Shown: positions 32,839-42,096 of the stretch, piece by piece
Layout of the letters: every line of letters begins with the position of its first letter
Numbering within the stretch: position 1 is the stretch's first letter
Notes under the pieces: model-generated
What the model saw: the letters and a program-made list of their open reading frames with translations, nothing else
Databases searched by the model: none
Told to the model about the DNA's origin: nothing
Program-made: the position numbers and the translations under genes
NCBI GenBank assembly: GCA_964569605.1
Contig: CAZMUJ010000099.1
Span: 6,072 to 70,071, forward strand
Length of the DNA stretch: 64,000 bases
Direction of reading: 5' to 3'
From: an uncultured Acidobacteriota bacterium
GTDB taxonomy: Bacteria; Acidobacteriota; UBA6911; RPQK01; CBDAPI01

Positions 32839-33669
32839 CTAGAGTTCGAGTTTTCCGTGGTAAACCATATCCTTTAATTTAAATTTTTTCTTCAGATTTT
32901 TCCCGGCTACTTTGGTCACAAACTCAACCTCCCTCTCCTCGAGTGTAATAGGTTGCGTGCGTGGAAAGAGTATCAAAAGCTCTATCTGTTGCGGAAGCAA
33001 GGATGGAGCTACATCAACCTCATCTAAGTGTGGAGCTCTACGCATCTGAATCTCAACCGTTTGGATCGGAGAGCGACCTGGTATGTTAAGGAAAGAATGT
33101 GAACTCAAGCGCTCATTAAGGGCTGCCCAGGGATCTAAATTGGCTTCGGACTTAGAAATGTCGGGCTCATCAATAAAGAAAAGGCCAATTAATCCAGAGA
33201 GACCGATCATGTAATGGGTTTCCTCAATCAGCAACTCCTTGTCTGCGTGTGCCTCACTTCCATAGCGGTGTGTCGCAAAGGCATGTTTGATCGGTAAAGA
33301 GCTGCACCAGCGCACCGTAACACTTAGGCCTGAGGGTGAGCCCCTGCGGGATGGTGGAGCACCAGAGTGGCTTCTAGGATCTCCCCCTCCTCCTGGGTTC
33401 CCAAAGGCGACACCCCTTTCAGCAGTACTTCCACGGCTACTTGCAGAAACACCAGACATGCCACGGCTATTAGCTAAAACAAAAGCCTGTAGATTCTGGT
33501 TAAGACGGACGGGGATAGCACGAGCCCAGGGAGATTTTTTTAGCATCTTTTGGGTCTCTTTTTTGTTCCAGTCGGGGAATTCTTTCTTTTCCCAAAACTT
33601 CTGTGCTCCAAGAGCTACTTCTACAAGTATTATTGCAATTGAAACTAAAGGTATAAGTTTTTGTTTCAT
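32839..33669 (-). CDS. Conserved exported hypothetical protein (Acidobacteria-type)
   Basis: Signal peptide, then FWEKK..W..E..ML..SPWA, a Gly/Ser-rich linker, VRW.S.LPIK and a C-terminal FKLKDMVYHGKLEL. I recall this architecture from Acidobacteria proteins; not checked. Confidence 0.7.
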   Translation of the reverse strand: MKQKLIPLVSIAIILVEVALGAQKFWEKKEFPDWNKKETQKMLKKSPWARAIPVRLNQNLQAFVLANSRGMSGVSASSRGSTAERGVAFGNPGGGGDPRSHSGAPPSRRGSPSGLSVTVRWCSSLPIKHAFATHRYGSEAHADKELLIEETHYMIGLSGLIGLFFIDEPDISKSEANLDPWAALNERLSSHSFLNIPGRSPIQTVEIQMRRAPHLDEVDVAPSLLPQQIELLILFPRTQPITLEEREVEFVTKVAGKNLKKKFKLKDMVYHGKLEL

Positions 33670-33741
33670 ATGATCCTCTATTTAAGCTTTGCACAGATTC
33701 TGTTAAGAATTGTACCTAATAAATGTCTTGAGGGTCCAAGA

Positions 33742-34788
33742 ATGTACAAAGATGCTTATGAACTCAAAAAACTGGTTTCCAAAATATTAATGGCTGCAAA
33801 TGCCAATCAGGTAAACGCCAAGGTGGTAGCTGAACATTTAGTTTCAGCTAATCTCAGTGGGGTAGACACACATGGGGTCTGGCAGTTGCCAGGTTATATT
33901 TCTGCCATCCAGGCTGGAGAACTGGTTCCTGCCGCGCAGCCCGAAATTCTACAAGAAACAGCTACCAGTGCATTAGTAACTGGAAACTGGACCTTCGGGC
34001 AAGTAGCGGCAAAGTTCGCAATGGAAAAGGCTATTGCCAAAGTCGCCAAGTACGACCTGGCTTTAGTTGGAATCGTAGAGAGTCACCACATTGGTCGTCT
34101 TGGTGAATACGCAGAAATGGCAGCCTCTAAAAAGATGATCTCTATGATCTCAGCAGGTGGTTTTTCTGAAAACAGGCCAGTAGTTGTCCCGCATGGAGGT
34201 CGGAAGGCGATTCTGGGAACCAATCCTATAGCAATGGGTTTTCCTGCCGGAAACGAGCCTCGCATGCTGTTCGATTTTGCAACTGCTGCATCGTCGGGCG
34301 TGAAGATCGTCAATGCTCAGCGCTCAAAGAAAAAAATACCTGAAGGCTGGATCGTTGATAAAGAAGGTAATCCCTCCCAAAATGCAGATGATGTTTTAGA
34401 GGGAGGTGGTCAGCTACCCTTTGGAGAGCATAAAGGTTATTCACTATTGATGGCGACTGAATGGCTAAGTCGAGTTTTTACAGGGTCATCCCGGTTTTCC
34501 CAGGACAACCGTGGAGGCCTCTACTTTAGTCATTCGGGTACAACTATGATTGTTTTTAGAGCAGATCTTTTCCAATCATTTCCCGATTACGCTGATCGGG
34601 CGGACCGCCTGAAACAGCGTGTGAAGTCTGTGCCTCCAGCACCGGGATTTGAAGAGGTTCTTATTCCTGGAGATCCGGAGTTGCGGACACGTGCTTCCAG
34701 GTTGCAGGATGGAATTCCTATTCCTGCAAAACTTTGGAAAGAGTTGGAAACCCTAGCAAGATCACTGGGGATTACAATCTCTGAATAA
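33742..34788 (+). CDS. Ldh_2 family oxidoreductase (malate/L-lactate/sulfolactate/ureidoglycolate dehydrogenase type 2)
   Basis: GVDTHGV, HHIGRLGEY, GTNPIA, DFAT, HKGYSL, LIPGDPE. ATG 33742 is preferred over the track start 33661, which overlaps the divergent gene. Confidence 0.9.
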   Translation: MYKDAYELKKLVSKILMAANANQVNAKVVAEHLVSANLSGVDTHGVWQLPGYISAIQAGELVPAAQPEILQETATSALVTGNWTFGQVAAKFAMEKAIAKVAKYDLALVGIVESHHIGRLGEYAEMAASKKMISMISAGGFSENRPVVVPHGGRKAILGTNPIAMGFPAGNEPRMLFDFATAASSGVKIVNAQRSKKKIPEGWIVDKEGNPSQNADDVLEGGGQLPFGEHKGYSLLMATEWLSRVFTGSSRFSQDNRGGLYFSHSGTTMIVFRADLFQSFPDYADRADRLKQRVKSVPPAPGFEEVLIPGDPELRTRASRLQDGIPIPAKLWKELETLARSLGITISE

Positions 34789-34842: not shown

Positions 34843-36531
34843 ATGAAAAGGATTGCCAGAAAAAACGCAAACTCCGTACTGGCTCTTACATTGCTCCTGC
34901 TAACCATATCTGGGCCTTCAAATGGGGCACTTTCCGTCACTCCCTCTGAGGTCCAGTTTGTAGATCACTCTCTGCTAGTGGCTCCTGAATTTCCGTGTAC
35001 TTGGCCTAATATATTTCCACTTTTCCACATCAACCACTACCTCCGGATTGGTCCGCTGAGTCCTTACAATAGCGACATTATTACGCTAGATGAAAATACT
35101 GGGTCCCAATTCGATTCTCCGGCGCATGGTCCGGTTCCTGGTCAGACAGCTATGATCACGCCAGAAAAAGTTCCCATCTGGCAATTTACAGGAGAGGCCT
35201 GTGTGATTGACGTCCGTCATCTTCTGGATGATTCAGCTCTGGGTCAGAGTCCGCTCATTAAAAAAGAACATATTGTGTCTTGGGAACAGAAGAACCGCTC
35301 ACTCGGAGCTGGAGACGTTGTCCTTTTTCACAGTGGCTACAGTGATCGCTACTATCAGCCACTACCGGCAGGACGACGTTTTATTGCTAAGCCTGTAGAA
35401 GGAAAATCACAGGCCTGGCCCGCCCCAGACCCTGAAGCCATGGATTATCTTGGAAGTCTAGGTGTAATGACTGCTGGTACAGATGGTGTAAGCATGGGAC
35501 CAATAGGGCCTCTGGTGTTGGAAACCCATGCCGCTGGCCTGAAATATGGAATGATCTGGGCAGAAGGTGTTACTAACTTAGGAAATATTCCGACTGTGGG
35601 GGCATTTTACTCCCAGTTGCCTCCCAAGCATGGAGGCGGTATTGGTGCCGAAATCCGTGCCTTTACTGTGGTTGGGTCTCCACTTGCTAAATGGCTTGTT
35701 AATGCAGCTCGTGGTAAAAGAGTTCTCGATTTATCTGTGCAACTGTCGGAAAATCTACCGGTTTGGTGGCCTGGCCCAGGTGTTGGGAATTCTCGCTATC
35801 CCTATTATCAGCATGTTCTCCCACTTCCTTTTACCCCCCCACAGCATCAGCGTGCCTTTGACAGTCATGTTGGAACTCATCTGGTTCCCCCGAGCTATGC
35901 GTTACCCAGAGAAGGGTTTGATAACAGCGATTATGCATTGGAGATACAGGAATGGTTGGAGCAGTACGAGGAGATATATGGTAGTCGGGGTATCAGCGAT
36001 GTGACTACGGAACAGGTTCCACTTTCCCAGACTAGTGGTTGGGCTCGGGTCATTGACGTTAAACCTTTGATCGGCTCAACAAATAAGTTGAGTTGGCCTG
36101 CATCTCCAGTGATTAGCCCAGAATATATAAAAAAACATGAAAAGGAACATGGTGAACTTAAACCAGGCACTGTGGTTATTTTTAACAGTGGATATAGTGA
36201 TATTTATTTGAAGCCTTTTCCTCAGGATCGGGCTTGTCTTGTAGAGCCTATCAACGGAGAAAGGGAAGGATGGCCGGCACCAGGACCGGATGCCATTAAA
36301 TACCTGGCAAACAAGGGAATTCAGTGTGTTGCAACTGATGGGCCCACGCTAGGGGGTGTCGATCCCAAAAACGCACTAATGACCTACTGGATGTTGGGCA
36401 GTCGTGGGATGGTAGGGGTAGAGTACCTGACTAATGTCGGAACTTTACCTTCCAAGGCATATTTTCTTTTTGCTGCTCCTAGGATTCGCGATAGCCATGG
36501 TGGAACGGGTAGAGCCATTGCCTTGTATTAA
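34843..36531 (+). CDS. Exported two-domain cyclase/kynurenine-formamidase-family hydrolase with degenerate metal motifs
   Basis: Signal peptide; two cyclase-like repeats (ENTGSQFDSPAH...GDVVLFHSG...GTDG...E.VTNL and SHVGTHLVPPSY...GTVVIFNSG...ATDG...E.LTNV...GGTGRAIAL). Confidence 0.8.
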   Translation: MKRIARKNANSVLALTLLLLTISGPSNGALSVTPSEVQFVDHSLLVAPEFPCTWPNIFPLFHINHYLRIGPLSPYNSDIITLDENTGSQFDSPAHGPVPGQTAMITPEKVPIWQFTGEACVIDVRHLLDDSALGQSPLIKKEHIVSWEQKNRSLGAGDVVLFHSGYSDRYYQPLPAGRRFIAKPVEGKSQAWPAPDPEAMDYLGSLGVMTAGTDGVSMGPIGPLVLETHAAGLKYGMIWAEGVTNLGNIPTVGAFYSQLPPKHGGGIGAEIRAFTVVGSPLAKWLVNAARGKRVLDLSVQLSENLPVWWPGPGVGNSRYPYYQHVLPLPFTPPQHQRAFDSHVGTHLVPPSYALPREGFDNSDYALEIQEWLEQYEEIYGSRGISDVTTEQVPLSQTSGWARVIDVKPLIGSTNKLSWPASPVISPEYIKKHEKEHGELKPGTVVIFNSGYSDIYLKPFPQDRACLVEPINGEREGWPAPGPDAIKYLANKGIQCVATDGPTLGGVDPKNALMTYWMLGSRGMVGVEYLTNVGTLPSKAYFLFAAPRIRDSHGGTGRAIALY

Positions 36532-36852: not shown

Positions 36853-38436
36853 ATGAGACGATTTTTTAGTTACACCTGGTTATTACCACTGGTTTTGTTT
36901 CAAGCATGCAGTCCTACGGTCAAGGTCCCGTCAAAGAAGGCAATTACCAACCAAGATCTCCCTCTACCGTCGGTTACCATAAGCCTTAGTTCAAAGTTGT
37001 TAAATCTTGATCCTGTAAAACCGGCTCCACAGTCTGACATTATAACTATCTATTTAACTGCAGGCCGTCTTTTTAAATTAAACCGGGATTGGTCTGTGGA
37101 GCCTGAGCTCGCCGAATCCATGAAGGTGTCCGAAGATGGTTTAGAGGCTAAAGTTATACTTAAGGAGGACATTGTATATTCAGATGGGACAAAGCTTACG
37201 AGCCAGGACGTAGTATTTGCTTATACAAGAAATCGAGATTTTCCAGGCCCGTTTTTTCCTACATTACTGTTGCCCATTGATAGCGTTGAGGCTGCTGATC
37301 ATCGCACTGTTATTTTTCGTTTAAAGCAACCCTATATTGACCTGCGTTTGGCACTAGCCCATATGGCCATGGTGATTCACCCCCAGTCGAAAATTGAAAA
37401 TGACCCTGATTATTTTCTGCACCCCGTCAGTGCAGGACCTTATGTTCTAAAAAAATGGATTCCCGGTGCCTCGACCTGGACTATTGAAGCCAATCCGCAT
37501 TATGTACGAGGTGCTATGGCGATTAACCAAATTGAGCTAGTATCGGTGCCCGATCCAACTTCGCGAGTGTTGCAATTGGTTTCAGGTTCCATCGATTATG
37601 TCTATGAACTTCCCGTATCAGCTCAAGCCTTAATGCCTGAAGAGGTAACAACACATAAGGTGCCTCTTAATGGACAATACTTCTTCGGTGTCAATCACGG
37701 GTTACCATCTAATCATCCTTTGCGAAATGCAAAAGTCCGGCAGGCATTCTCGCTGGCGATAAACCGGGAGGAGATCAACCAGAAAGCTTTTGGTGGAATT
37801 TCAACTCCTGCTAAAGGGTTTCAATATCCTGGACCGAAAGAAGGTCTGGACAACCTTCCCTTTAAGGGCAGAAGAAACCTCGAGGCTGCTCGAGAACTGT
37901 TGGCTCAGACGCCTTTTGCCAAGGGATTTAGAACAATTCTTCATAGTTATGGACAGCGACCTGGATGGACAGATGCGGCCCTTGTCATTGCTTCTAACCT
38001 AAAAGACTTGGGAATCGAAGTTCAAGTTAGTCCCGTTGAGGACTCTGTGGCAACTTCCGATGCTCGTGCGGGACGCTTCGAAATGATTTTTTCTGGAAAT
38101 AGTTCAGGGCCAATAAATTTTTTTAGAAATATGTGGATTCCTGGTACGTTTTGGGCTGAGGTTCTTCGCTATAATAGTCCAGAGGTGATATCTCTGGTCA
38201 ATGCTGCTTCTAAGTCAAAAAACTTCGATCAGAGAATTGAGCTAATCCATGCAGCTCAGGATTTAGCACTTGAGGAAATGCCCATCATTCCAGTGTCGGA
38301 GCGGGTACTGTTAGTGGGAAGTCGAATTCGTCGGGACATTTTATTTGAAGAAAATCTCCCCCCGGGTACCAACCCTATGGTAGCAACAATATCTGAATTG
38401 CAGGGAGTCGACAGCGGATCGGCTGTTCGTGAATAA
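36853..38436 (+). CDS. ABC transporter substrate-binding lipoprotein (SBP family 5, peptide/nickel/opine)
   Basis: Lipobox FQA-C; VEPELAES, YSDGTKLTSQDV, SAGPYVL, VRQAFSLAINRE. Confidence 0.9.
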   Translation: MRRFFSYTWLLPLVLFQACSPTVKVPSKKAITNQDLPLPSVTISLSSKLLNLDPVKPAPQSDIITIYLTAGRLFKLNRDWSVEPELAESMKVSEDGLEAKVILKEDIVYSDGTKLTSQDVVFAYTRNRDFPGPFFPTLLLPIDSVEAADHRTVIFRLKQPYIDLRLALAHMAMVIHPQSKIENDPDYFLHPVSAGPYVLKKWIPGASTWTIEANPHYVRGAMAINQIELVSVPDPTSRVLQLVSGSIDYVYELPVSAQALMPEEVTTHKVPLNGQYFFGVNHGLPSNHPLRNAKVRQAFSLAINREEINQKAFGGISTPAKGFQYPGPKEGLDNLPFKGRRNLEAARELLAQTPFAKGFRTILHSYGQRPGWTDAALVIASNLKDLGIEVQVSPVEDSVATSDARAGRFEMIFSGNSSGPINFFRNMWIPGTFWAEVLRYNSPEVISLVNAASKSKNFDQRIELIHAAQDLALEEMPIIPVSERVLLVGSRIRRDILFEENLPPGTNPMVATISELQGVDSGSAVRE

Positions 38437-39433
38437 TGTAAATTTACCTTCTAAACAAACCGGCTTTCTCTTGTTGGGCACATATCTTTCTTTCCTAAAC
38501 TCTAGGGCTTTTCAGAATTTAATTAGAGCACTACTAGCAACTATGGGTGTTTTGGTGGTGACCTTTACTCTGATCCACCTAATTCCCGGTGATCCAGTGG
38601 AAATGTTATTGGGTGAAGCGGCTACAGAGGAGCTGGTTCTTGAATACCGGAGAATTCTAGGTCTTGAGGGAAGTCTGTTTGATCAATTTATTAGTTATCT
38701 AAGCTCGGTAGTACACGGAGACCTCGGAACTTCTTTGTTAACTAGGCAAAGTGTCAATGCAGTGGTTGCTCGAACACTGCCGCTAACAGCTTGGTTAATC
38801 ACTGTAACAATTGCAATGTCACTCTTGATGGCAATTCCTTTGGGTATTCTTGCGGCAATTTATAGAGGAACTTGGTTTGACCATGCTTTCCGCGTTTTCA
38901 CCTCTATTTCTCTGGCCACTCCCAGTTTTTATTCAGGCTTGCTACTGATTCTTTTTTTTGCCATTCAATTAAAGCTGGCGCCAGTAGCAGGCTATAATCC
39001 AGGGTTTCCAGGAAATCTATATTATCTGTGGTTGCCTGCTCTTACCATGAGTGGGGCGTTGGTTCCTATTCTTTCAAGAGTCTTGCAGAGTTCGATTGTG
39101 GATACTATGGAGCAGGAATTTGTGGAAACAGCTATTGTCAGAGGGCTTCCCAAATCTGTGTTGGTTTGGCGTTATCTTTTGCGACCCTCACTTGCCCCAA
39201 CTATTGGGCTTCTGGGTTACATCATTGGCCAATTGTTGAGTGCCACGGTAGTGGTTGAAATTGTTTTCAATCTTCCAGGAATGGGTACGGCCCTGGTGGT
39301 CGAAGGGGTGCTGCTTCGAGACTATCCTCTAGTCCAGGGCATCATTCTTGTGTTTGCCCTCATTGTAGTCATCGTTAGTTTCTTATCAGATATGTTGTGT
39401 GGATGGATTGATCCTAGGACTAAAATTTCATGA
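38429..39433 (+). CDS. ABC transporter permease (DppB/OppB-like)
   Basis: IPGDPV, GDLGTS, EAA-like loop QEFVETAIVRG, VEIVFNLPGMG, RDYPLVQG. Confidence 0.92.
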   Translation: MNNVNLPSKQTGFLLLGTYLSFLNSRAFQNLIRALLATMGVLVVTFTLIHLIPGDPVEMLLGEAATEELVLEYRRILGLEGSLFDQFISYLSSVVHGDLGTSLLTRQSVNAVVARTLPLTAWLITVTIAMSLLMAIPLGILAAIYRGTWFDHAFRVFTSISLATPSFYSGLLLILFFAIQLKLAPVAGYNPGFPGNLYYLWLPALTMSGALVPILSRVLQSSIVDTMEQEFVETAIVRGLPKSVLVWRYLLRPSLAPTIGLLGYIIGQLLSATVVVEIVFNLPGMGTALVVEGVLLRDYPLVQGIILVFALIVVIVSFLSDMLCGWIDPRTKIS

Positions 39434-40260
39434 AGTTGTCAAAGATAGCGTTTGTCAAAGATCTTAACCATTCAACGATCTGTGGTCTCGCTATTGTCAT
39501 GATGATCGTATTTCTCAGCATCATGGTCCCCCTTTTTAGTCCGTATAATCCTCTGGTTGGCGTAAGCGAACCCTTGTCTGCTCCCAGCCTTTCCAATTTT
39601 TTTGGAACTGATCAGCTGGGCCGAGATGTGTTCACGCGGACCTTTGCTTCAGGAAGGTTAGATCTTATGCTGGCCCTCATAGGGGTGGCAGGTCCGTTGT
39701 TCATTGGGACTTTACTGGGTGCTATTTTGGGGACAACTCGTAGTTCGCTGGTGGTTTGGTTCTGGCTGATGTTGATTGACGCCATCAATGCATTTCCTTT
39801 TATCGTTCTTGTGATCGCGATTGTTGCAATCATGGGTCCGGGGGTCAGTGGTCTACTCATTGGTTTAACGGCAGTTAACTGGGCTCGTTATGCCAAAATT
39901 GCTCGAGCTAGAGCGCTGATTTTACGGAGATCCGATTTTGTCGAGGTAACAAGAGTCCTTGGATATTCAAGAATTCGAGTTTTGGTCAGACACATTCTTC
40001 CGAATGTATTTAGTGAGACAATTGCCTATGGATTAAGCGATTTTGTTATCGTTGTGCTCGCTGTCTCGGCACTGTCTTTCCTAGGTGCTGGAGTCCGCCC
40101 CCCCACGGCTGAATGGGGTGCCATGATGGCAGACGGACGTGTTTATTTACAGACACATTGGTGGATCACAGTATTTCCAGGGCTTGCTTTGTCTCTTGCT
40201 GCAATCGGTGTTGCTCTGCTTGCCCATGGTTTGGTAGGACGTTACGCTGGAGAAAAATGA
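39430..40260 (+). CDS. ABC transporter permease (DppC/OppC-like)
   Basis: FGTDQLGRD, RHILPN, LSFLGAG..PPTAEWGAM. Confidence 0.92.
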   Translation: MKLSKIAFVKDLNHSTICGLAIVMMIVFLSIMVPLFSPYNPLVGVSEPLSAPSLSNFFGTDQLGRDVFTRTFASGRLDLMLALIGVAGPLFIGTLLGAILGTTRSSLVVWFWLMLIDAINAFPFIVLVIAIVAIMGPGVSGLLIGLTAVNWARYAKIARARALILRRSDFVEVTRVLGYSRIRVLVRHILPNVFSETIAYGLSDFVIVVLAVSALSFLGAGVRPPTAEWGAMMADGRVYLQTHWWITVFPGLALSLAAIGVALLAHGLVGRYAGEK

Positions 40261-40264
40261 AATA

Positions 40265-41305
40265 GTGGTCAGAAGTAAAGAAAAACCAACCATGAAATCG
40301 AAAGCCTCACTCGGTCAAACGGCTAATATTCTGGAAGTAGAAGGAGTGTGTATCAGTGTGCCTCAAGTGAAAGGGCCAATGCTAAATTTAATAGAGACAG
40401 CTGATTTTCAGCTTCGTAGTGACCAATCACTGGGTATTGTTGGGGAATCAGGCTCGGGAAAGACCATGCTGTGTCGGTCTCTAATCGGAACGCTAAGCCG
40501 GCATGGGGCAGTTGTTTCAGGGGGAAAAATTGTTTTTAAGGGACAGGACCTGACGGGTGTTGACGAGTCTACTTGGAGACAAATTAGGGGTCGTTGTATC
40601 GGTTACGTACCGCAGAGCTCGCTGGCTGGGCTCAATCCTGTTCTAACTGTTAGGACACAGCTATTAGAGGCTATTCGGGTGGTCAGAAAACTTGCTCCAA
40701 AAGAGGCTGAAGAAGAAGCAATACAACTTCTAGAACAGGTGCATATTGATCGACCTGTGGCGGTTTTGGATGCGCGATCTGACCAACTCTCTGGAGGAAT
40801 GAGACAACGTGTCATGATTGCCACTGCCATTGCTCAAAAACCTGATATTCTGATTGCTGATGAACCCACAACAGCGTTGGATGTCACCATTCAAAGTGAG
40901 ATTCTTGCCCTGATTAATAGCTTGCACAAGGAGTTGGGCATGGCACTTATTTTCGTGTCACACGATCTAGCCGTGGTTGAAGAAGTTTGTGATAGCGTCA
41001 TGGTTATGTACTCTGGGGCCTCAGTCGAGATTGGCCCTATTGATGCTGTGGTTGAAAATCCTTGTCATCCTTACACCAAGGCCCTTCTTGCCTCTCGGGT
41101 TGATCTGGCAACGGTTGGAAAAGAATTAGAAGCAGTTCCTGGAGACCCAGCTTCAGTAGGGGCCTGGCCTACAGGATGTCGATTCTGGCCCCGCTGTTCG
41201 TTGGTGGATGAACTGTGCAAACAAGGAGTCCAGCCTTCTTTAAAGGCTGTAAATAGTCAACAAACGGCCTGTTTGCGTGCCGATTTTCTAGAGAGGAATG
41301 CATGA
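40265..41305 (+). CDS. ABC transporter ATP-binding protein (DppD-like)
   Basis: GESGSGKT, LSGGMRQR, ADEPTTALD, HPYT, Cys-rich oligo_HPY tail. Confidence 0.92.
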   Translation: MVRSKEKPTMKSKASLGQTANILEVEGVCISVPQVKGPMLNLIETADFQLRSDQSLGIVGESGSGKTMLCRSLIGTLSRHGAVVSGGKIVFKGQDLTGVDESTWRQIRGRCIGYVPQSSLAGLNPVLTVRTQLLEAIRVVRKLAPKEAEEEAIQLLEQVHIDRPVAVLDARSDQLSGGMRQRVMIATAIAQKPDILIADEPTTALDVTIQSEILALINSLHKELGMALIFVSHDLAVVEEVCDSVMVMYSGASVEIGPIDAVVENPCHPYTKALLASRVDLATVGKELEAVPGDPASVGAWPTGCRFWPRCSLVDELCKQGVQPSLKAVNSQQTACLRADFLERNA

Positions 41306-42096
41306 ATCGGGCACTCCTTGAGGGCAGGGACATTACAGTCCAGTTTGGTCAGGGCTCAAATGCGTTTGAAGCAGTAAAGTCTGCATCTATGTACATTAAC
41401 TCAGGTGAAATTGTCGGAATAGTGGGGGAAAGTGGCAGTGGCAAGACAACTTTAGCCCGTGTTTTAGTGGGGCTCCAGCCTATCAGAGTGGGGGCGGTGT
41501 CACTGGAAGAGACTCTAGTTCTGAGTTCTAATTCAAAAAAGGAAATTCCAAAAAATGAGCGCTGGAAAATACAGATGGTTTTCCAGGATCCTTATTCCTC
41601 ACTCAATCCCCGGATACAGGCTTGGAAAACAGTGGCAGAAGTCTTTCAGGTCTGGAAAAAACTTTCGCCAAAACAAGGGAAGAAAGCAGCATTCGATCTG
41701 TTGCAATCGATTGGCATAACAGCCTCTCAAGCCAAGCGGTATCCAAGATCATTGTCAGGTGGTCAGCGTCAGCGGGTCAGCATTGCTCGTGCTCTTGCCC
41801 CAGGACCCAAAGTTCTTATAGCGGATGAACCGACTTCTTCCATCGACCAGTCTGCACAGGCTCAGTTAATAAATCTTTTAAATCGGCTTCAATCCGAACG
41901 GGATCTTGCGATCTTGTTTATTTCGCACGATTTGGCCCTTGTACGCTATATAACATCCCGTGTATATGTAATGAAGCAAGGATGTATCGTAGAGGAAGGG
42001 AACACCAAGACTGTTTTGCATCGCCCAAAACATCCTTATACAAAACTTCTGTTAGAATCGCTTCCTGGTAAAGTACATCAACAGTCATCCTCCTAA
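41302..42096 (+). CDS. ABC transporter ATP-binding protein (DppF-like)
   Basis: GESGSGKT, FQDPYSSLNP, LSGGQRQR, ADEPTSSID, HPYT. Confidence 0.92.
   Translation: MNRALLEGRDITVQFGQGSNAFEAVKSASMYINSGEIVGIVGESGSGKTTLARVLVGLQPIRVGAVSLEETLVLSSNSKKEIPKNERWKIQMVFQDPYSSLNPRIQAWKTVAEVFQVWKKLSPKQGKKAAFDLLQSIGITASQAKRYPRSLSGGQRQRVSIARALAPGPKVLIADEPTSSIDQSAQAQLINLLNRLQSERDLAILFISHDLALVRYITSRVYVMKQGCIVEEGNTKTVLHRPKHPYTKLLLESLPGKVHQQSSS

What the first reader, a model, noticed from the sequence alone, without database searches (positions are those of the whole stretch)
34843..36531. Exported tandem cyclase whose two domains keep complementary halves of the metal-binding motif
Seen: the family motif HxGTHxDxPxH is ENTGSQFDSPAH in domain 1 (35092-35127: both first His lost, Asp and last His kept, downstream H..E kept in ETH...WAEG). 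It is SHVGTHLVPPSY in domain 2 (35863-35898: both first His kept, Asp and last His lost, only the downstream Glu kept). Known: KynB/isatin-hydrolase cyclases are homodimers whose metal site uses these His/Asp/Glu residues. Inference: a fused pseudo-heterodimer with a remodelled or composite active site, or a catalytic + binding domain split. Its signal peptide suggests periplasmic processing of the substrate of the downstream ABC transporter.
Basis: partly seen in the sequence, partly recalled or inferred. Interest (0 to 1): 0.55.

Follow-up and report, generated by a model that had tools for sequence, protein, structure and literature searches.

The report
Exported two-domain cyclase-fold hydrolase, one site dead
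This gene encodes a secreted enzyme made of two fused copies of the kynurenine-formamidase/isatin-hydrolase fold, where the first copy keeps a remodelled catalytic centre and the second is a conserved but apparently dead partner; it belongs to a large, uncharacterised family of soil and water bacteria and is an unusual variant of a known enzyme type, not a new kind of system.

Summary
ORF 34843-36531 encodes a 562-aa protein with a Sec-type leader and two PF04199 cyclase-fold domains.

The substitutions are conserved, not decaying. In 144 tandem homologues with a degenerate second domain:
- Domain 1 always keeps Asp91, His95, Asp214, His229 and Glu241. These form the second metal site plus the proton-shuttle triad of KynB, isatin hydrolase and C-PTE. 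The two first-site histidines are Asn/His85 and Gln89.
- Domain 2 has lost the bridging Asp and both shuttle histidines. Its "kept" first histidine (His342) is replaced by Gln, Phe, Asn or Met in about half of the relatives.

Related tandem subfamilies combine a canonical domain 1 with a degenerate domain 2, or the reverse. The two changes are therefore independent, and a composite site is unlikely.

Best reading: a covalent pseudo-heterodimer with one remodelled active site in domain 1 and a structural or ligand-binding pseudo-domain 2.

The link to the ABC transporter holds only in the closest relatives. The recurrent partner is the upstream Ldh_2 oxidoreductase. In the sister subfamily the recurrent neighbours are 2-hydroxyacid/2-oxoacid dehydrogenases and an MFS carrier. 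The substrate is unknown.

Earlier first-reader notes of this scan flagged similar secreted tandem cyclases in at least five other genomes; none was followed up.

The parts
34843..36531 (+). Whole gene: exported tandem cyclase-fold protein, 562 aa
   Evidence: ORF list and translation. PF04199 at 125 bits in two stretches. AF2 pLDDT 84.7, pTM 0.87.
34843..34926 (+). Sec-type signal peptide, residues 1-28 (basic n-region, hydrophobic core, SNG|A)
   Evidence: Read from the sequence. Low-pLDDT N-terminal helix 4-22 followed by a disordered stretch 22-33. A hydrophobic N-terminal 12-mer occurs in 77/80 loci of the NQ subfamily. No predictor was run.
34948..35679 (+). Domain 1 (residues 36-279), the putative catalytic cyclase-fold domain
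   Evidence: VIA-align gives Z 26.1, rmsd 2.6 A, 233 residues against isatin hydrolase 4m8d, and Z 25.8 against C-PTE 8f9x. Sequence hits to IH, C-PTE and KynB.
35014..35088 (+). Domain 1 beta-hairpin (residues 58-82). It corresponds to the exchanged hairpin of IH/C-PTE dimers and would reach into domain 2
   Evidence: DSSP strands 62-66 and 77-82. Mean identity 0.77 in 121 homologues. Hairpin exchange is described in PMC6117287 and PMC12135135.
35092..35127 (+). Domain 1 motif ENTGSQFDSPAH: Asn85 and Gln89 replace the two first-site histidines; Asp91 and His95 are kept
   Evidence: Across 144 tandem homologues: Asn/His85 79/65, Gln89 138, Asp91 144, His95 144.
35482..35565 (+). Domain 1 Asp214, His229 and Glu241: the shuttle Asp, the second-site/shuttle His, and the bridging Glu
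   Evidence: Aligned to the His and Glu of C-PTE and to IH His207. 144/144 conserved.
35713..36528 (+). Domain 2 (residues 291-562), a cyclase-fold pseudo-catalytic domain
   Evidence: Modelled alone: pLDDT 84.2. Z 24.8 against C-PTE and 24.3 against IH. Profile hit to IH at E 3e-14.
35788..35859 (+). Domain 2 hairpin (residues 316-339), variable in sequence and length. It would line the domain 1 pocket
   Evidence: Mean identity 0.45. Strands 321-325 and 335-340 with pLDDT about 80 in the full-length model. pLDDT below 50 when domain 2 is modelled alone.
35863..35898 (+). Domain 2 motif SHVGTHLVPPSY: His342 and His346 kept; the bridging Asp is Val348 and the catalytic His is Tyr352
   Evidence: Across 144 homologues: His342 76, His346 143, Val348 136, Tyr/Phe352 92/47.
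36385..36423 (+). Domain 2 Tyr515 (replaces the downstream His) and Glu527 (kept)
   Evidence: Alignments to PaKynB and LaIHA. Tyr515 113/144 (Asp in 23), Glu527 139/144.
33742..34788 (+). Upstream Ldh_2-family oxidoreductase, 54 nt from the cyclase and probably co-transcribed. The likely start is ATG 33742 rather than TTG 33661; no leader is present
   Evidence: PF02615 at E 7e-101. N-terminus read. An Ldh_2 gene lies directly upstream on the same strand in L005, L006, L008 and L011 and in at least 12 loci of the sister subfamily.
36853..42096 (+). SBP5 + two permeases + two ATPases (Opp/Dpp-type ABC importer). A neighbour, separated by 321 nt; the link is not conserved beyond close relatives
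   Evidence: Pfam. NCBIfam hits are all far below their cut-offs. Present downstream in only 7 of 80 genome loci.

Best explanation
The gene encodes a Sec-exported, single-chain pseudo-heterodimer of two cyclase-fold domains (the KynB / isatin hydrolase / C-PTE fold). It arose by an old internal duplication.

Domain 1 is the catalytic half.
- It keeps the bridging Asp91, the general base His95, the Asp214-His229 shuttle pair and Glu241. Together these are the complete second (beta / ZnII) metal site and proton-transfer machinery of the characterised enzymes.
- The two histidines of the first (alpha / ZnI / MnI) site have become Asn85 and Gln89.
- Domain 1 therefore probably runs either on a single metal in the second site, or on a mixed pair with a harder ion (Mn, Mg or Ca) held by oxygen ligands in the first site (inferred).

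Domain 2 has lost the bridging Asp and both shuttle histidines, so it cannot work by the known mechanism.
- It is probably retained because this fold needs a partner whose beta-hairpin completes the active-site pocket.
- It may also bind a ligand (inferred).

The enzyme most likely hydrolyses an amide, lactam, lactone or ester outside the cytoplasm. The acid product would then be imported and oxidised by cytoplasmic dehydrogenases such as the co-oriented Ldh_2 enzyme (inferred from gene neighbourhood; substrate unknown).
For: Architecture and fold.

Residue roles taken from papers:
- KynB: first-site Zn bound by His50, His54 and Asp56; second-site Zn by Asp56, His161 and Glu173; His60 is the base (PMC4243253).
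- LaIHA: Mn bound by His69, His73 and Asp75; shuttle His79-His207-Asp193 (PMC6117287).
- C-PTE: alpha site His92, His96, Asp98, Glu236; beta site Asp98, His224, Glu236; hairpin 67-90 reaches into the partner's site (PMC12135135).

Mapping onto this protein.

Conservation:
- Domain 1 Asp91, His95, Asp214, His229 and Glu241 are identical in all 160 tandem homologues from every subfamily.
- Domain 2 His342 is 76/144, Tyr352 alternates with Phe, and Tyr515 alternates with Asp.

The tree shows congruent domain 1 and domain 2 clades with a both-canonical protein basal. This points to one old duplication followed by independent changes.

Single-domain exported relatives carry HxGTQ (P0187, P0201), and a paralogue in the same genome carries QxGTQxDxPxH with the downstream His and Glu. 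The Gln variant therefore exists in proteins where every site is of that type.

The domain 2 hairpin is ordered only in the full-length model, which fits hairpin exchange.

Export is conserved.

Gene neighbourhood:
- Ldh_2 lies directly upstream here and in divergent subfamilies.
- In the sister subfamily (59 loci, 19 clusters at 70% identity), within 6 kb: 2-hydroxyacid dehydrogenase in 32, SDR in 31, 2-oxoacid dehydrogenase E1 in 35 and E2 in 28, MFS in 32.
Against: - No metal content, activity or coordinates are available.
- In isatin hydrolase the only metal sits in the first site, whose histidines domain 1 lacks, so domain 1 could be inactive.
- Domain 2 is as conserved as domain 1 (mean identity 0.76 against 0.77), and its motif is the most conserved stretch (0.93). 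The conserved domain 1 hairpin would line the domain 2 pocket. This is more than a passive scaffold would obviously need.
- I could not superpose the model on a solved dimer, so the pseudo-dimer geometry rests on pTM 0.87 and the hairpin ordering.
- The dehydrogenase-rich neighbourhood belongs mainly to the sister subfamily (40-48% identical). Within the window's own subfamily neighbours are mostly not conserved.
- The tree is midpoint-rooted only.
Confidence: 0.6

Rival explanations
1. Both domains are active, each with a different single-metal site. Domain 1 would use the second site (Asp91, His229, Glu241). Domain 2 would use the first site (His342, His346, Glu527) with Tyr352 and Tyr515 as new catalytic or ligand residues. 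The result would be a bifunctional enzyme.
For: In this protein the retained residues are exactly complementary. Domain 2 is as conserved as domain 1 and its motif is the most conserved segment. In KynB and C-PTE the Glu also contacts the first-site metal, so a His-His-Glu triad is geometrically conceivable.
Against: His342 is Asn, Thr or Gln in 19/121 close homologues. It is Gln, Phe, Asn, Met or Leu in about half of the 144 wider homologues. Tyr352 alternates with Phe and Tyr515 with Asp. No general base remains in domain 2.
Confidence: 0.15
2. The two half-motifs from the two domains come together to form one composite metal and active site at the domain interface.
For: Only the reciprocal pattern of losses in this protein.
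Against: The two changes occur separately in related subfamilies: canonical domain 1 with degenerate domain 2, and N..Q domain 1 with canonical domain 2. Solved dimers of the fold have two separate sites, each completed only by the partner's hairpin. Each domain model superposes on a complete protomer.
Confidence: 0.03
3. Neither site is catalytic. The protein is an exported binding protein or scaffold that uses the old substrate pockets to hold a small molecule.
For: Both domains lack a complete canonical motif. TIGR03035 (arylformamidase) scores 32.5 bits against a cut-off of 223. In the only mononuclear member characterised, the metal uses the histidines that domain 1 has lost.
Against: All five catalytic and second-site residues of domain 1 are invariant in 160 homologues across subfamilies down to about 40% identity. 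That is hard to explain without chemistry. The Gln variant also occurs in single-domain relatives.
Confidence: 0.12
4. It is a decaying duplicate or pseudogene whose motifs are eroding at random.
For: None beyond the non-canonical motifs.
Against: The frame is intact. There are 1581 database clusters at E <= 1e-10 and at least 556 genome hits. Identity is 55-73% across two phyla, with the same substitutions fixed.
Confidence: 0.01

Closest known systems
Isatin hydrolase (LaIHA/LaIHB, RsIHA; PDB 4M8D, 4J0N, 5NNA, 5NMP)
   Same: Same fold for both domains: Z 26.1 for domain 1 and 24.3 for domain 2. The N-terminal hairpin, exchanged between protomers in isatin hydrolase, is present in both domains. 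Domain 1 keeps the His-His-Asp proton shuttle (His95, His229, Asp214) and the metal-binding Asp.
   Different: Isatin hydrolase is a cytoplasmic single-domain homodimer with one Mn bound by His, His and Asp. Here two domains are fused behind a signal peptide. Domain 1 has Asn/Gln in place of the two Mn histidines, and domain 2 lacks the Asp and both shuttle histidines. The GLQC/GLAS and WxW signatures are absent; both domains have a KynB-like Glu instead.
Cyclase-phosphotriesterase C-PTE of Ruegeria pomeroyi (PDB 8F9X)
   Same: Z 25.8 for domain 1 and 24.8 for domain 2. C-PTE is a domain-swapped dimer whose hairpin reaches the partner's site. Its beta-site ligands Asp, His and Glu and the nearby catalytic His are all present in domain 1.
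   Different: C-PTE has a full binuclear Zn site (alpha site His92 and His96). It has a single domain and assembles as dimers that pack into a decamer. Neither domain here has the complete ligand set.
Bacterial kynurenine formamidase KynB (PDB 4COB, 4CO9, 4COG; TIGR03035)
   Same: Same fold (Z about 21.7). Both domains carry the I/L/V-E motif Glu. Domain 1 has the equivalents of Asp56, His60, His161 and Glu173.
   Different: KynB is a roughly 210-aa cytoplasmic homodimer in which His50 and His54 are conserved in over 99% of sequences. The TIGR03035 score here is 32.5 against a cut-off of 223. No tryptophan-catabolic genes lie nearby. The genome has a separate canonical 235-aa KynB-like gene.
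Other exported tandem cyclase subfamilies (P0126 and P0135 both canonical; P0132 N..Q + canonical; P0124 canonical + degenerate)
   Same: Same two-domain architecture. Except for P0135, they share the same duplication (congruent domain 1 and domain 2 clades). All have signal-like N-termini except the P0124 type.
   Different: They carry different combinations of intact and altered sites. None is characterised. Database names are only 'cyclase family protein', 'kynurenine formamidase' or 'isatin hydrolase'.

Membership tests
Pfam PF04199 Cyclase (KynB/isatin-hydrolase fold) | Profile HMM score above the gathering threshold | tested here: met
   125.1 bits against 23.1, in two stretches.
Pfam PF04199 Cyclase (KynB/isatin-hydrolase fold) | The fold of solved members, in each domain | tested here: met
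   Domain 1: Z 26.1, rmsd 2.6 A, 233 residues aligned. Domain 2 alone: Z 24.8, rmsd 2.5 A, 204 residues aligned.
Pfam PF04199 Cyclase (KynB/isatin-hydrolase fold) | Complete HxG[T/A]HxDxPxH metal motif | tested here: not met
   Domain 1 has NxGSQxDxPxH and domain 2 has HxGTHxVxPxY.
Pfam PF04199 Cyclase (KynB/isatin-hydrolase fold) | Dimer with hairpin exchange that completes the partner's pocket | tested here: inconclusive
   The two domains are fused. pTM is 0.87, and the domain 2 hairpin is ordered only in the full-length model. No coordinates were available to superpose on a solved dimer.
Kynurenine formamidase KynB (EC 3.5.1.9, TIGR03035) | Equivalog HMM above its cut-off | tested here: not met
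   32.5 bits against a cut-off of 223.05.
Kynurenine formamidase KynB (EC 3.5.1.9, TIGR03035) | Binuclear Zn ligands His50, His54, Asp56, His161 and Glu173, plus His60 | tested here: not met
   Domain 1 has N, Q, D, H, E and H. Domain 2 has H, H, V, Y, E and Y.
Kynurenine formamidase KynB (EC 3.5.1.9, TIGR03035) | Hydrolysis of N-formylkynurenine | not testable with these tools
   An enzyme assay is needed.
Isatin hydrolase | Mn site His-His-Asp together with the GLQC/GLAS signature and the WxW/FxW pocket motif | tested here: not met
   Neither domain has the His-His-Asp site. At the signature position domain 1 reads IWAEG and domain 2 reads VGVEY. The hairpin of domain 1 reads SPYNSD.
Cyclase-phosphotriesterase (C-PTE type) | Alpha site His, His, Asp, Glu and beta site Asp, His, Glu | tested here: not met
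   The beta site is complete in domain 1 only. The alpha-site histidines are missing in domain 1, and the Asp is missing in domain 2.

The most novel reading that the evidence does not exclude
This exported family runs on a metal centre new to the cyclase fold. Either the second site (Asp/His/Glu) works alone, or it pairs with an all-oxygen Asn/Gln/Asp/Glu first site holding Ca, Mg or Mn, as an adaptation to life outside the cytoplasm. The strictly conserved domain 2 pocket would then serve as a second, non-catalytic ligand site that gates or feeds the domain 1 site. The enzyme would open cyclic alpha-oxo esters or amides (isatin-like or dehydroascorbate-like) to alpha-oxo acids, which the linked Ldh_2, 2-hydroxyacid and 2-oxoacid dehydrogenases then consume.
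Probability: 0.15. Interest if true: 0.65.

Novelty: new variant of a known kind. Interest (0 to 1): 0.45.

Why it matters
The cyclase/KynB fold is known from a handful of cytoplasmic single-domain homodimers. This protein belongs to a large exported two-domain branch that nobody has characterised. The branch has over 1,500 sequence clusters and hits in at least 556 species genomes, mostly Planctomycetota and Acidobacteriota.

The natural series runs from two intact sites, through either site altered, to one remodelled site plus one dead site. That makes it a clean system for studying two questions:
- how obligate homodimers turn into fused heterodimers;
- how a binuclear His-rich centre can be rebuilt with amide ligands.

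The recurrent link to Ldh_2, 2-hydroxyacid and 2-oxoacid dehydrogenase genes gives a concrete starting point for finding the substrate. This could uncover an extracytoplasmic step in carbon turnover by abundant soil and water bacteria.

It is not a new kind of system. The pattern of one active and one dead domain after duplication is well known in other enzyme families.

Tried and rejected
Gene context came instead from the search for related loci in the genome and metagenome collections.
- No model coordinates are exposed. I could not measure the distance between the two sites or superpose the model on a solved dimer.
- Searching P0132 in the window's own phylum returned only orthologues of the window's subfamily.
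- Literature searches for PF04199 and for tandem cyclase-family proteins found no description of the two-domain exported form. One search failed on term syntax.
- NCBIfam gave no equivalog-level name for the SBP, the Ldh_2, the aldolase or the Nramp-like carrier. All scores were below the cut-offs, except the Nramp_1 model (NF037982) for the carrier.
- The promoter and terminator scan was no richer than shuffled sequence. It found no terminator on the + strand between the cyclase and the SBP, so operon boundaries remain open.
- The ESM Atlas returned only clusters named 'putative cyclase family protein'.
- All-against-all clustering of neighbours in the 80 genome loci found no universally conserved neighbour for the window's subfamily. 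One Terriglobia/Versatilivorator synteny block (M81/MlrC peptidase, amidohydrolase, BKACE, gluconolactonase and others) looks lineage-specific.
- Rejected explanations: pseudogene decay, because of the conservation; and a composite site, because the two changes are separable and the sites in known dimers are separate.
Full report
**1. What is in the sequence**

The ORF at 34843-36531 (+) is intact and encodes 562 residues. The N-terminus has a basic stretch, an 11-residue hydrophobic core and a small-residue site (SNG|A). This is a typical Sec leader; I judged it by eye because no predictor was available. AlphaFold gives a low-confidence helix at 4-22 followed by a disordered stretch.

Pfam finds PF04199 (Cyclase) twice, at 125 bits against a cut-off of 23.1. 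The two halves are 37% identical over 168 residues (E 2e-31).

- ENTGSQFDSPAH at residues 84-95 (nt 35092-35127)
- SHVGTHLVPPSY at residues 341-352 (nt 35863-35898)

**2. Fold**

- The full-length model has pLDDT 84.7 and pTM 0.87. The pTM value means the two domains are predicted to pack in one fixed arrangement.
- Foldseek and VIA-align place domain 1 (36-279) on isatin hydrolase (Z 26.1, rmsd 2.6 A, 233 residues), C-PTE (Z 25.8) and KynB (Z about 21.7).
- Domain 2 modelled alone (pLDDT 84.2) matches C-PTE (Z 24.8, rmsd 2.5 A, 204 residues) and isatin hydrolase (Z 24.3).
- The stretch of domain 2 that corresponds to the exchanged hairpin (residues about 309-341) is below pLDDT 50 when domain 2 is modelled alone. 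In the full-length model it forms two strands at pLDDT about 80.
- This fits the hairpin packing on domain 1, as the hairpin of one protomer packs on the other in solved dimers (PMC6117287; PMC12135135).
- I could not superpose on a dimer because coordinates are not exposed.

**3. Residue map**

Residue roles from the literature:
- In BaKynB, the first Zn is held by His50, His54 and Asp56. The second Zn is held by Asp56, His161 and Glu173. His60 is the proposed base (PMC4243253).
- In LaIHA, the single Mn is held by His69, His73 and Asp75. His79, His207 and Asp193 shuttle protons (PMC6117287).
- C-PTE has the same two sites: alpha site His92, His96, Asp98, Glu236; beta site Asp98, His224, Glu236; with His102 nearby.

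Alignments give the following equivalents:

| Role | Domain 1 | Domain 2 |
|---|---|---|
| First-site His (1) | Asn85 | His342 |
| First-site His (2) | Gln89 | His346 |
| Bridging Asp | Asp91 | Val348 |
| Base / shuttle His | His95 | Tyr352 |
| Shuttle Asp | Asp214 | Asp499 |
| Second-site / shuttle His | His229 | Tyr515 |
| Bridging Glu | Glu241 | Glu527 |

Domain 1 keeps the whole second site and the proton machinery and has lost only the two first-site histidines. Domain 2 keeps those two histidines and the Glu and has lost everything else.

**4. Conservation**

The family is large:
- 1581 clusters at E <= 1e-10 among the candidates scored.
- At least 556 hits in the one-genome-per-species collection, mainly Acidobacteriota and Planctomycetota, with a few Acidimicrobiia and Chloroflexota bins.
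- Within the window's own phylum it is patchy: 9 of 301 sampled genomes, all in two families of one order.

In 121 homologues at 55-98% identity:
- Gln89, Asp91, His95 and His346 are invariant.
- Val348 is 120/121 and Tyr352 is 114/121.
- Asn85 is Asn 105 / His 16.
- His342 is His 102, otherwise Asn, Thr or Gln.

Both domains are equally conserved (mean identity 0.77 and 0.76). The domain 2 motif is the most conserved stretch (0.93). The domain 1 hairpin is conserved (0.77), while the domain 2 hairpin is variable in sequence and length (0.45). Random decay is excluded.

**5. Wider tandem clade**

The exhaustive representative search and the metagenome scan brought in other tandem subfamilies. 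Across 160 tandem proteins:
- Domain 1 positions 91, 95, 214, 229 and 241 are Asp, His, Asp, His and Glu without exception.
- Position 85 is Asn or His, and position 89 is Gln or His.
- Among the 144 proteins with a degenerate domain 2, position 342 is His in only 76. It is otherwise Gln 34, Phe 12, Asn 8, Met 6, and others.
- In the same 144, position 352 is Tyr 92 / Phe 47 and position 515 is Tyr 113 / Asp 23.
- His346 (143), Asp499 (142), Trp516 (142) and Glu527 (139) persist.

All combinations of site states exist:
- both domains canonical (P0126, P0135);
- canonical domain 1 with degenerate domain 2 (P0124 type);
- N..Q domain 1 with canonical domain 2 (P0132 type);
- H..Q or N..Q domain 1 with degenerate domain 2.

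A maximum-likelihood tree of separated domains puts the domain 1s of P0126, P0132, P0124, the H..Q group and the N..Q group in one clade (100/99). Their domain 2s form another clade with the same branching order, and the both-canonical P0126 is basal. This indicates one old duplication followed by independent changes in each half. P0135 is a separate duplication. The root is a midpoint root only.

Single-domain exported relatives with HxGTQ and intact Asp, His, His and Glu exist (P0187, P0201). The window's own genome has an exported 331-aa single-domain paralogue with QxGTQxDxPxH plus the downstream His and Glu. The Gln substitution is therefore viable in proteins where every site carries it.

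**6. Interpretation**

- The invariance of the domain 1 set and the looseness of domain 2's first His argue that domain 1 is the working site. By the known mechanism, domain 2 is a pseudo-site.
- The apparent complementarity is real in this protein. It results from two separable histories, not from a shared site.
- What domain 1 uses as metal is inferred. It could be a lone second-site ion, or a second-site ion plus a harder ion bound by Asn/Gln/Asp/Glu oxygens in the first site.
- The high conservation of domain 2, and of the domain 1 hairpin that would line its pocket, is not fully explained by a scaffold role. It leaves room for a ligand-binding function.

**7. Export**

A strongly hydrophobic N-terminal segment precedes the first domain in most subfamilies:

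| Subfamily (domain 1 / domain 2) | Loci with hydrophobic N-terminus |
|---|---|
| N..Q / degenerate | 77/80 |
| H..Q / degenerate | 52/57 |
| N..Q / canonical | 9/9 |
| Both canonical | 5/5 |
| P0124 type | 0/6 (acidic extension instead) |

**8. Neighbourhood**

In the window:
- The cyclase follows a cytoplasmic Ldh_2-family oxidoreductase by 54 nt. The likely start of that gene is ATG 33742.
- An SBP5-type ABC importer follows the cyclase after 321 nt.
- An HpcH aldolase and an Nramp-like carrier lie divergently upstream.

In the 80 best genome loci:
- The ABC genes appear downstream only in the closest Acidobacteriota relatives: 7 of L005-L014, with SBP5 starting about 0.6 to 9.5 kb beyond the cyclase's end. 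An FG-GAP/ASPIC gene is inserted between them in at least one locus (L006).
- The ABC genes appear in none of the other 70 loci.
- No neighbour is universal in this subfamily.

Ldh_2, by contrast, sits directly upstream on the same strand:
- in L005, L006, L008 and L011;
- in at least 12 metagenome loci of the H..Q sister subfamily, whose cyclases are 40-48% identical to the window's and whose Ldh_2 proteins are only about 30% identical.

An earlier first-reader note on another genome (e1-775983) pointed to the same Ldh_2-cyclase pairing and prompted this test.

In the sister subfamily (59 loci, 19 clusters at 70% identity), the genes within 6 kb are:

| Neighbour | Loci |
|---|---|
| D-2-hydroxyacid dehydrogenase | 32 |
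| SDR | 31 |
| Fused 2-oxoacid dehydrogenase E1 | 35 |
| 2-oxoacid dehydrogenase E2 | 28 |
| MFS transporter | 32 |
| Malate:quinone oxidoreductase | 14 |
| Ldh_2 | 14 |

This suggests that the hydrolase's product is a 2-hydroxy or 2-oxo acid that is imported and oxidised. The product of isatin hydrolase, isatinate, is itself an alpha-oxo acid. This is an inference, drawn mainly from the sister subfamily. The substrate of the window's enzyme remains unknown.

**9. Comparison with known families and novelty**

- The protein is a member of PF04199 by profile and by fold.
- It fails the defining ligand sets of KynB, isatin hydrolase and C-PTE.
- It scores far below the KynB equivalog cut-off (32.5 against 223).
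- The genome has a separate canonical KynB-like gene.
- I found no paper describing exported tandem cyclase-fold proteins. Database names are generic.
- Earlier first-reader notes of this scan flagged similar proteins in at least five other genomes, without follow-up.

I classify it as a new variant of a known kind: a fused, exported pseudo-heterodimer with a remodelled metal centre.

**10. Limits**

- There is no activity, metal or coordinate data.
- The signal peptide was not scored by a predictor.
- The tree is midpoint-rooted.
- Many metagenome loci are related to one another, so locus counts overstate independence. The 19 clusters at 70% identity are the fairer unit.

Noticed in passing
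L003:1303-2298 (-) = own genome contig C94: An exported 331-aa single-domain cyclase-family paralogue has the motif QxGTQxDxPxH, with both first-site histidines replaced by Gln. It keeps the downstream His and Glu. It has no NCBIfam hit.
   Followed up: partly
L001:1294-2001 (-) = own genome contig C68: A canonical cytoplasmic 235-aa KynB-like protein (HCGTHMDSPFH; TIGR03035 at 108 bits, below its cut-off). The genome therefore has an ordinary family member besides the tandem one.
   Followed up: partly
window 33661-33741: The listed Ldh_2 ORF starts at TTG 33661 and overlaps the minus-strand 276-aa ORF (32839-33669). The Pfam match begins at residue 33 and an ATG lies at 33742, so the real start is probably there.
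   Followed up: partly
L095-L174, e.g. L118:7110-13174 and L120:5810-9716: In the H..Q sister subfamily the tandem cyclase sits in a recurrent cluster: D-2-hydroxyacid dehydrogenase, Ldh_2 and/or SDR upstream; MFS carrier, fused 2-oxoacid dehydrogenase E1, E2 and sometimes malate:quinone oxidoreductase downstream. It looks like an uncharacterised catabolic operon.
   Followed up: partly
protein P0106 (833 aa): One homologue fuses the tandem cyclase to a PF03781 (formylglycine-generating enzyme / sulfatase-modifying factor) domain.
   Followed up: no
L108, L112, L128, L143, L160 (P0124-type loci): The subfamily with a canonical domain 1 and a degenerate domain 2 lacks a signal peptide. It carries a long, highly acidic N-terminal extension instead.
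   Followed up: no
L017:8100-9596 and equivalent positions in L018, L020-L026: In Terriglobia/Versatilivorator genomes an M81/MlrC-type metallopeptidase lies directly upstream of the tandem cyclase. It sits within a block that also holds an amidohydrolase, BKACE, GNAT, aldo-keto reductase, metallo-beta-lactamase-fold, gluconolactonase-like and xylose-isomerase-like genes.
   Followed up: partly
window 32839-33669 (-): A 276-aa ORF with no Pfam or NCBIfam hit is conserved next to the Ldh_2/cyclase pair in the closest relatives (L005, L006, L008, L011; 43-57% identity).
   Followed up: no
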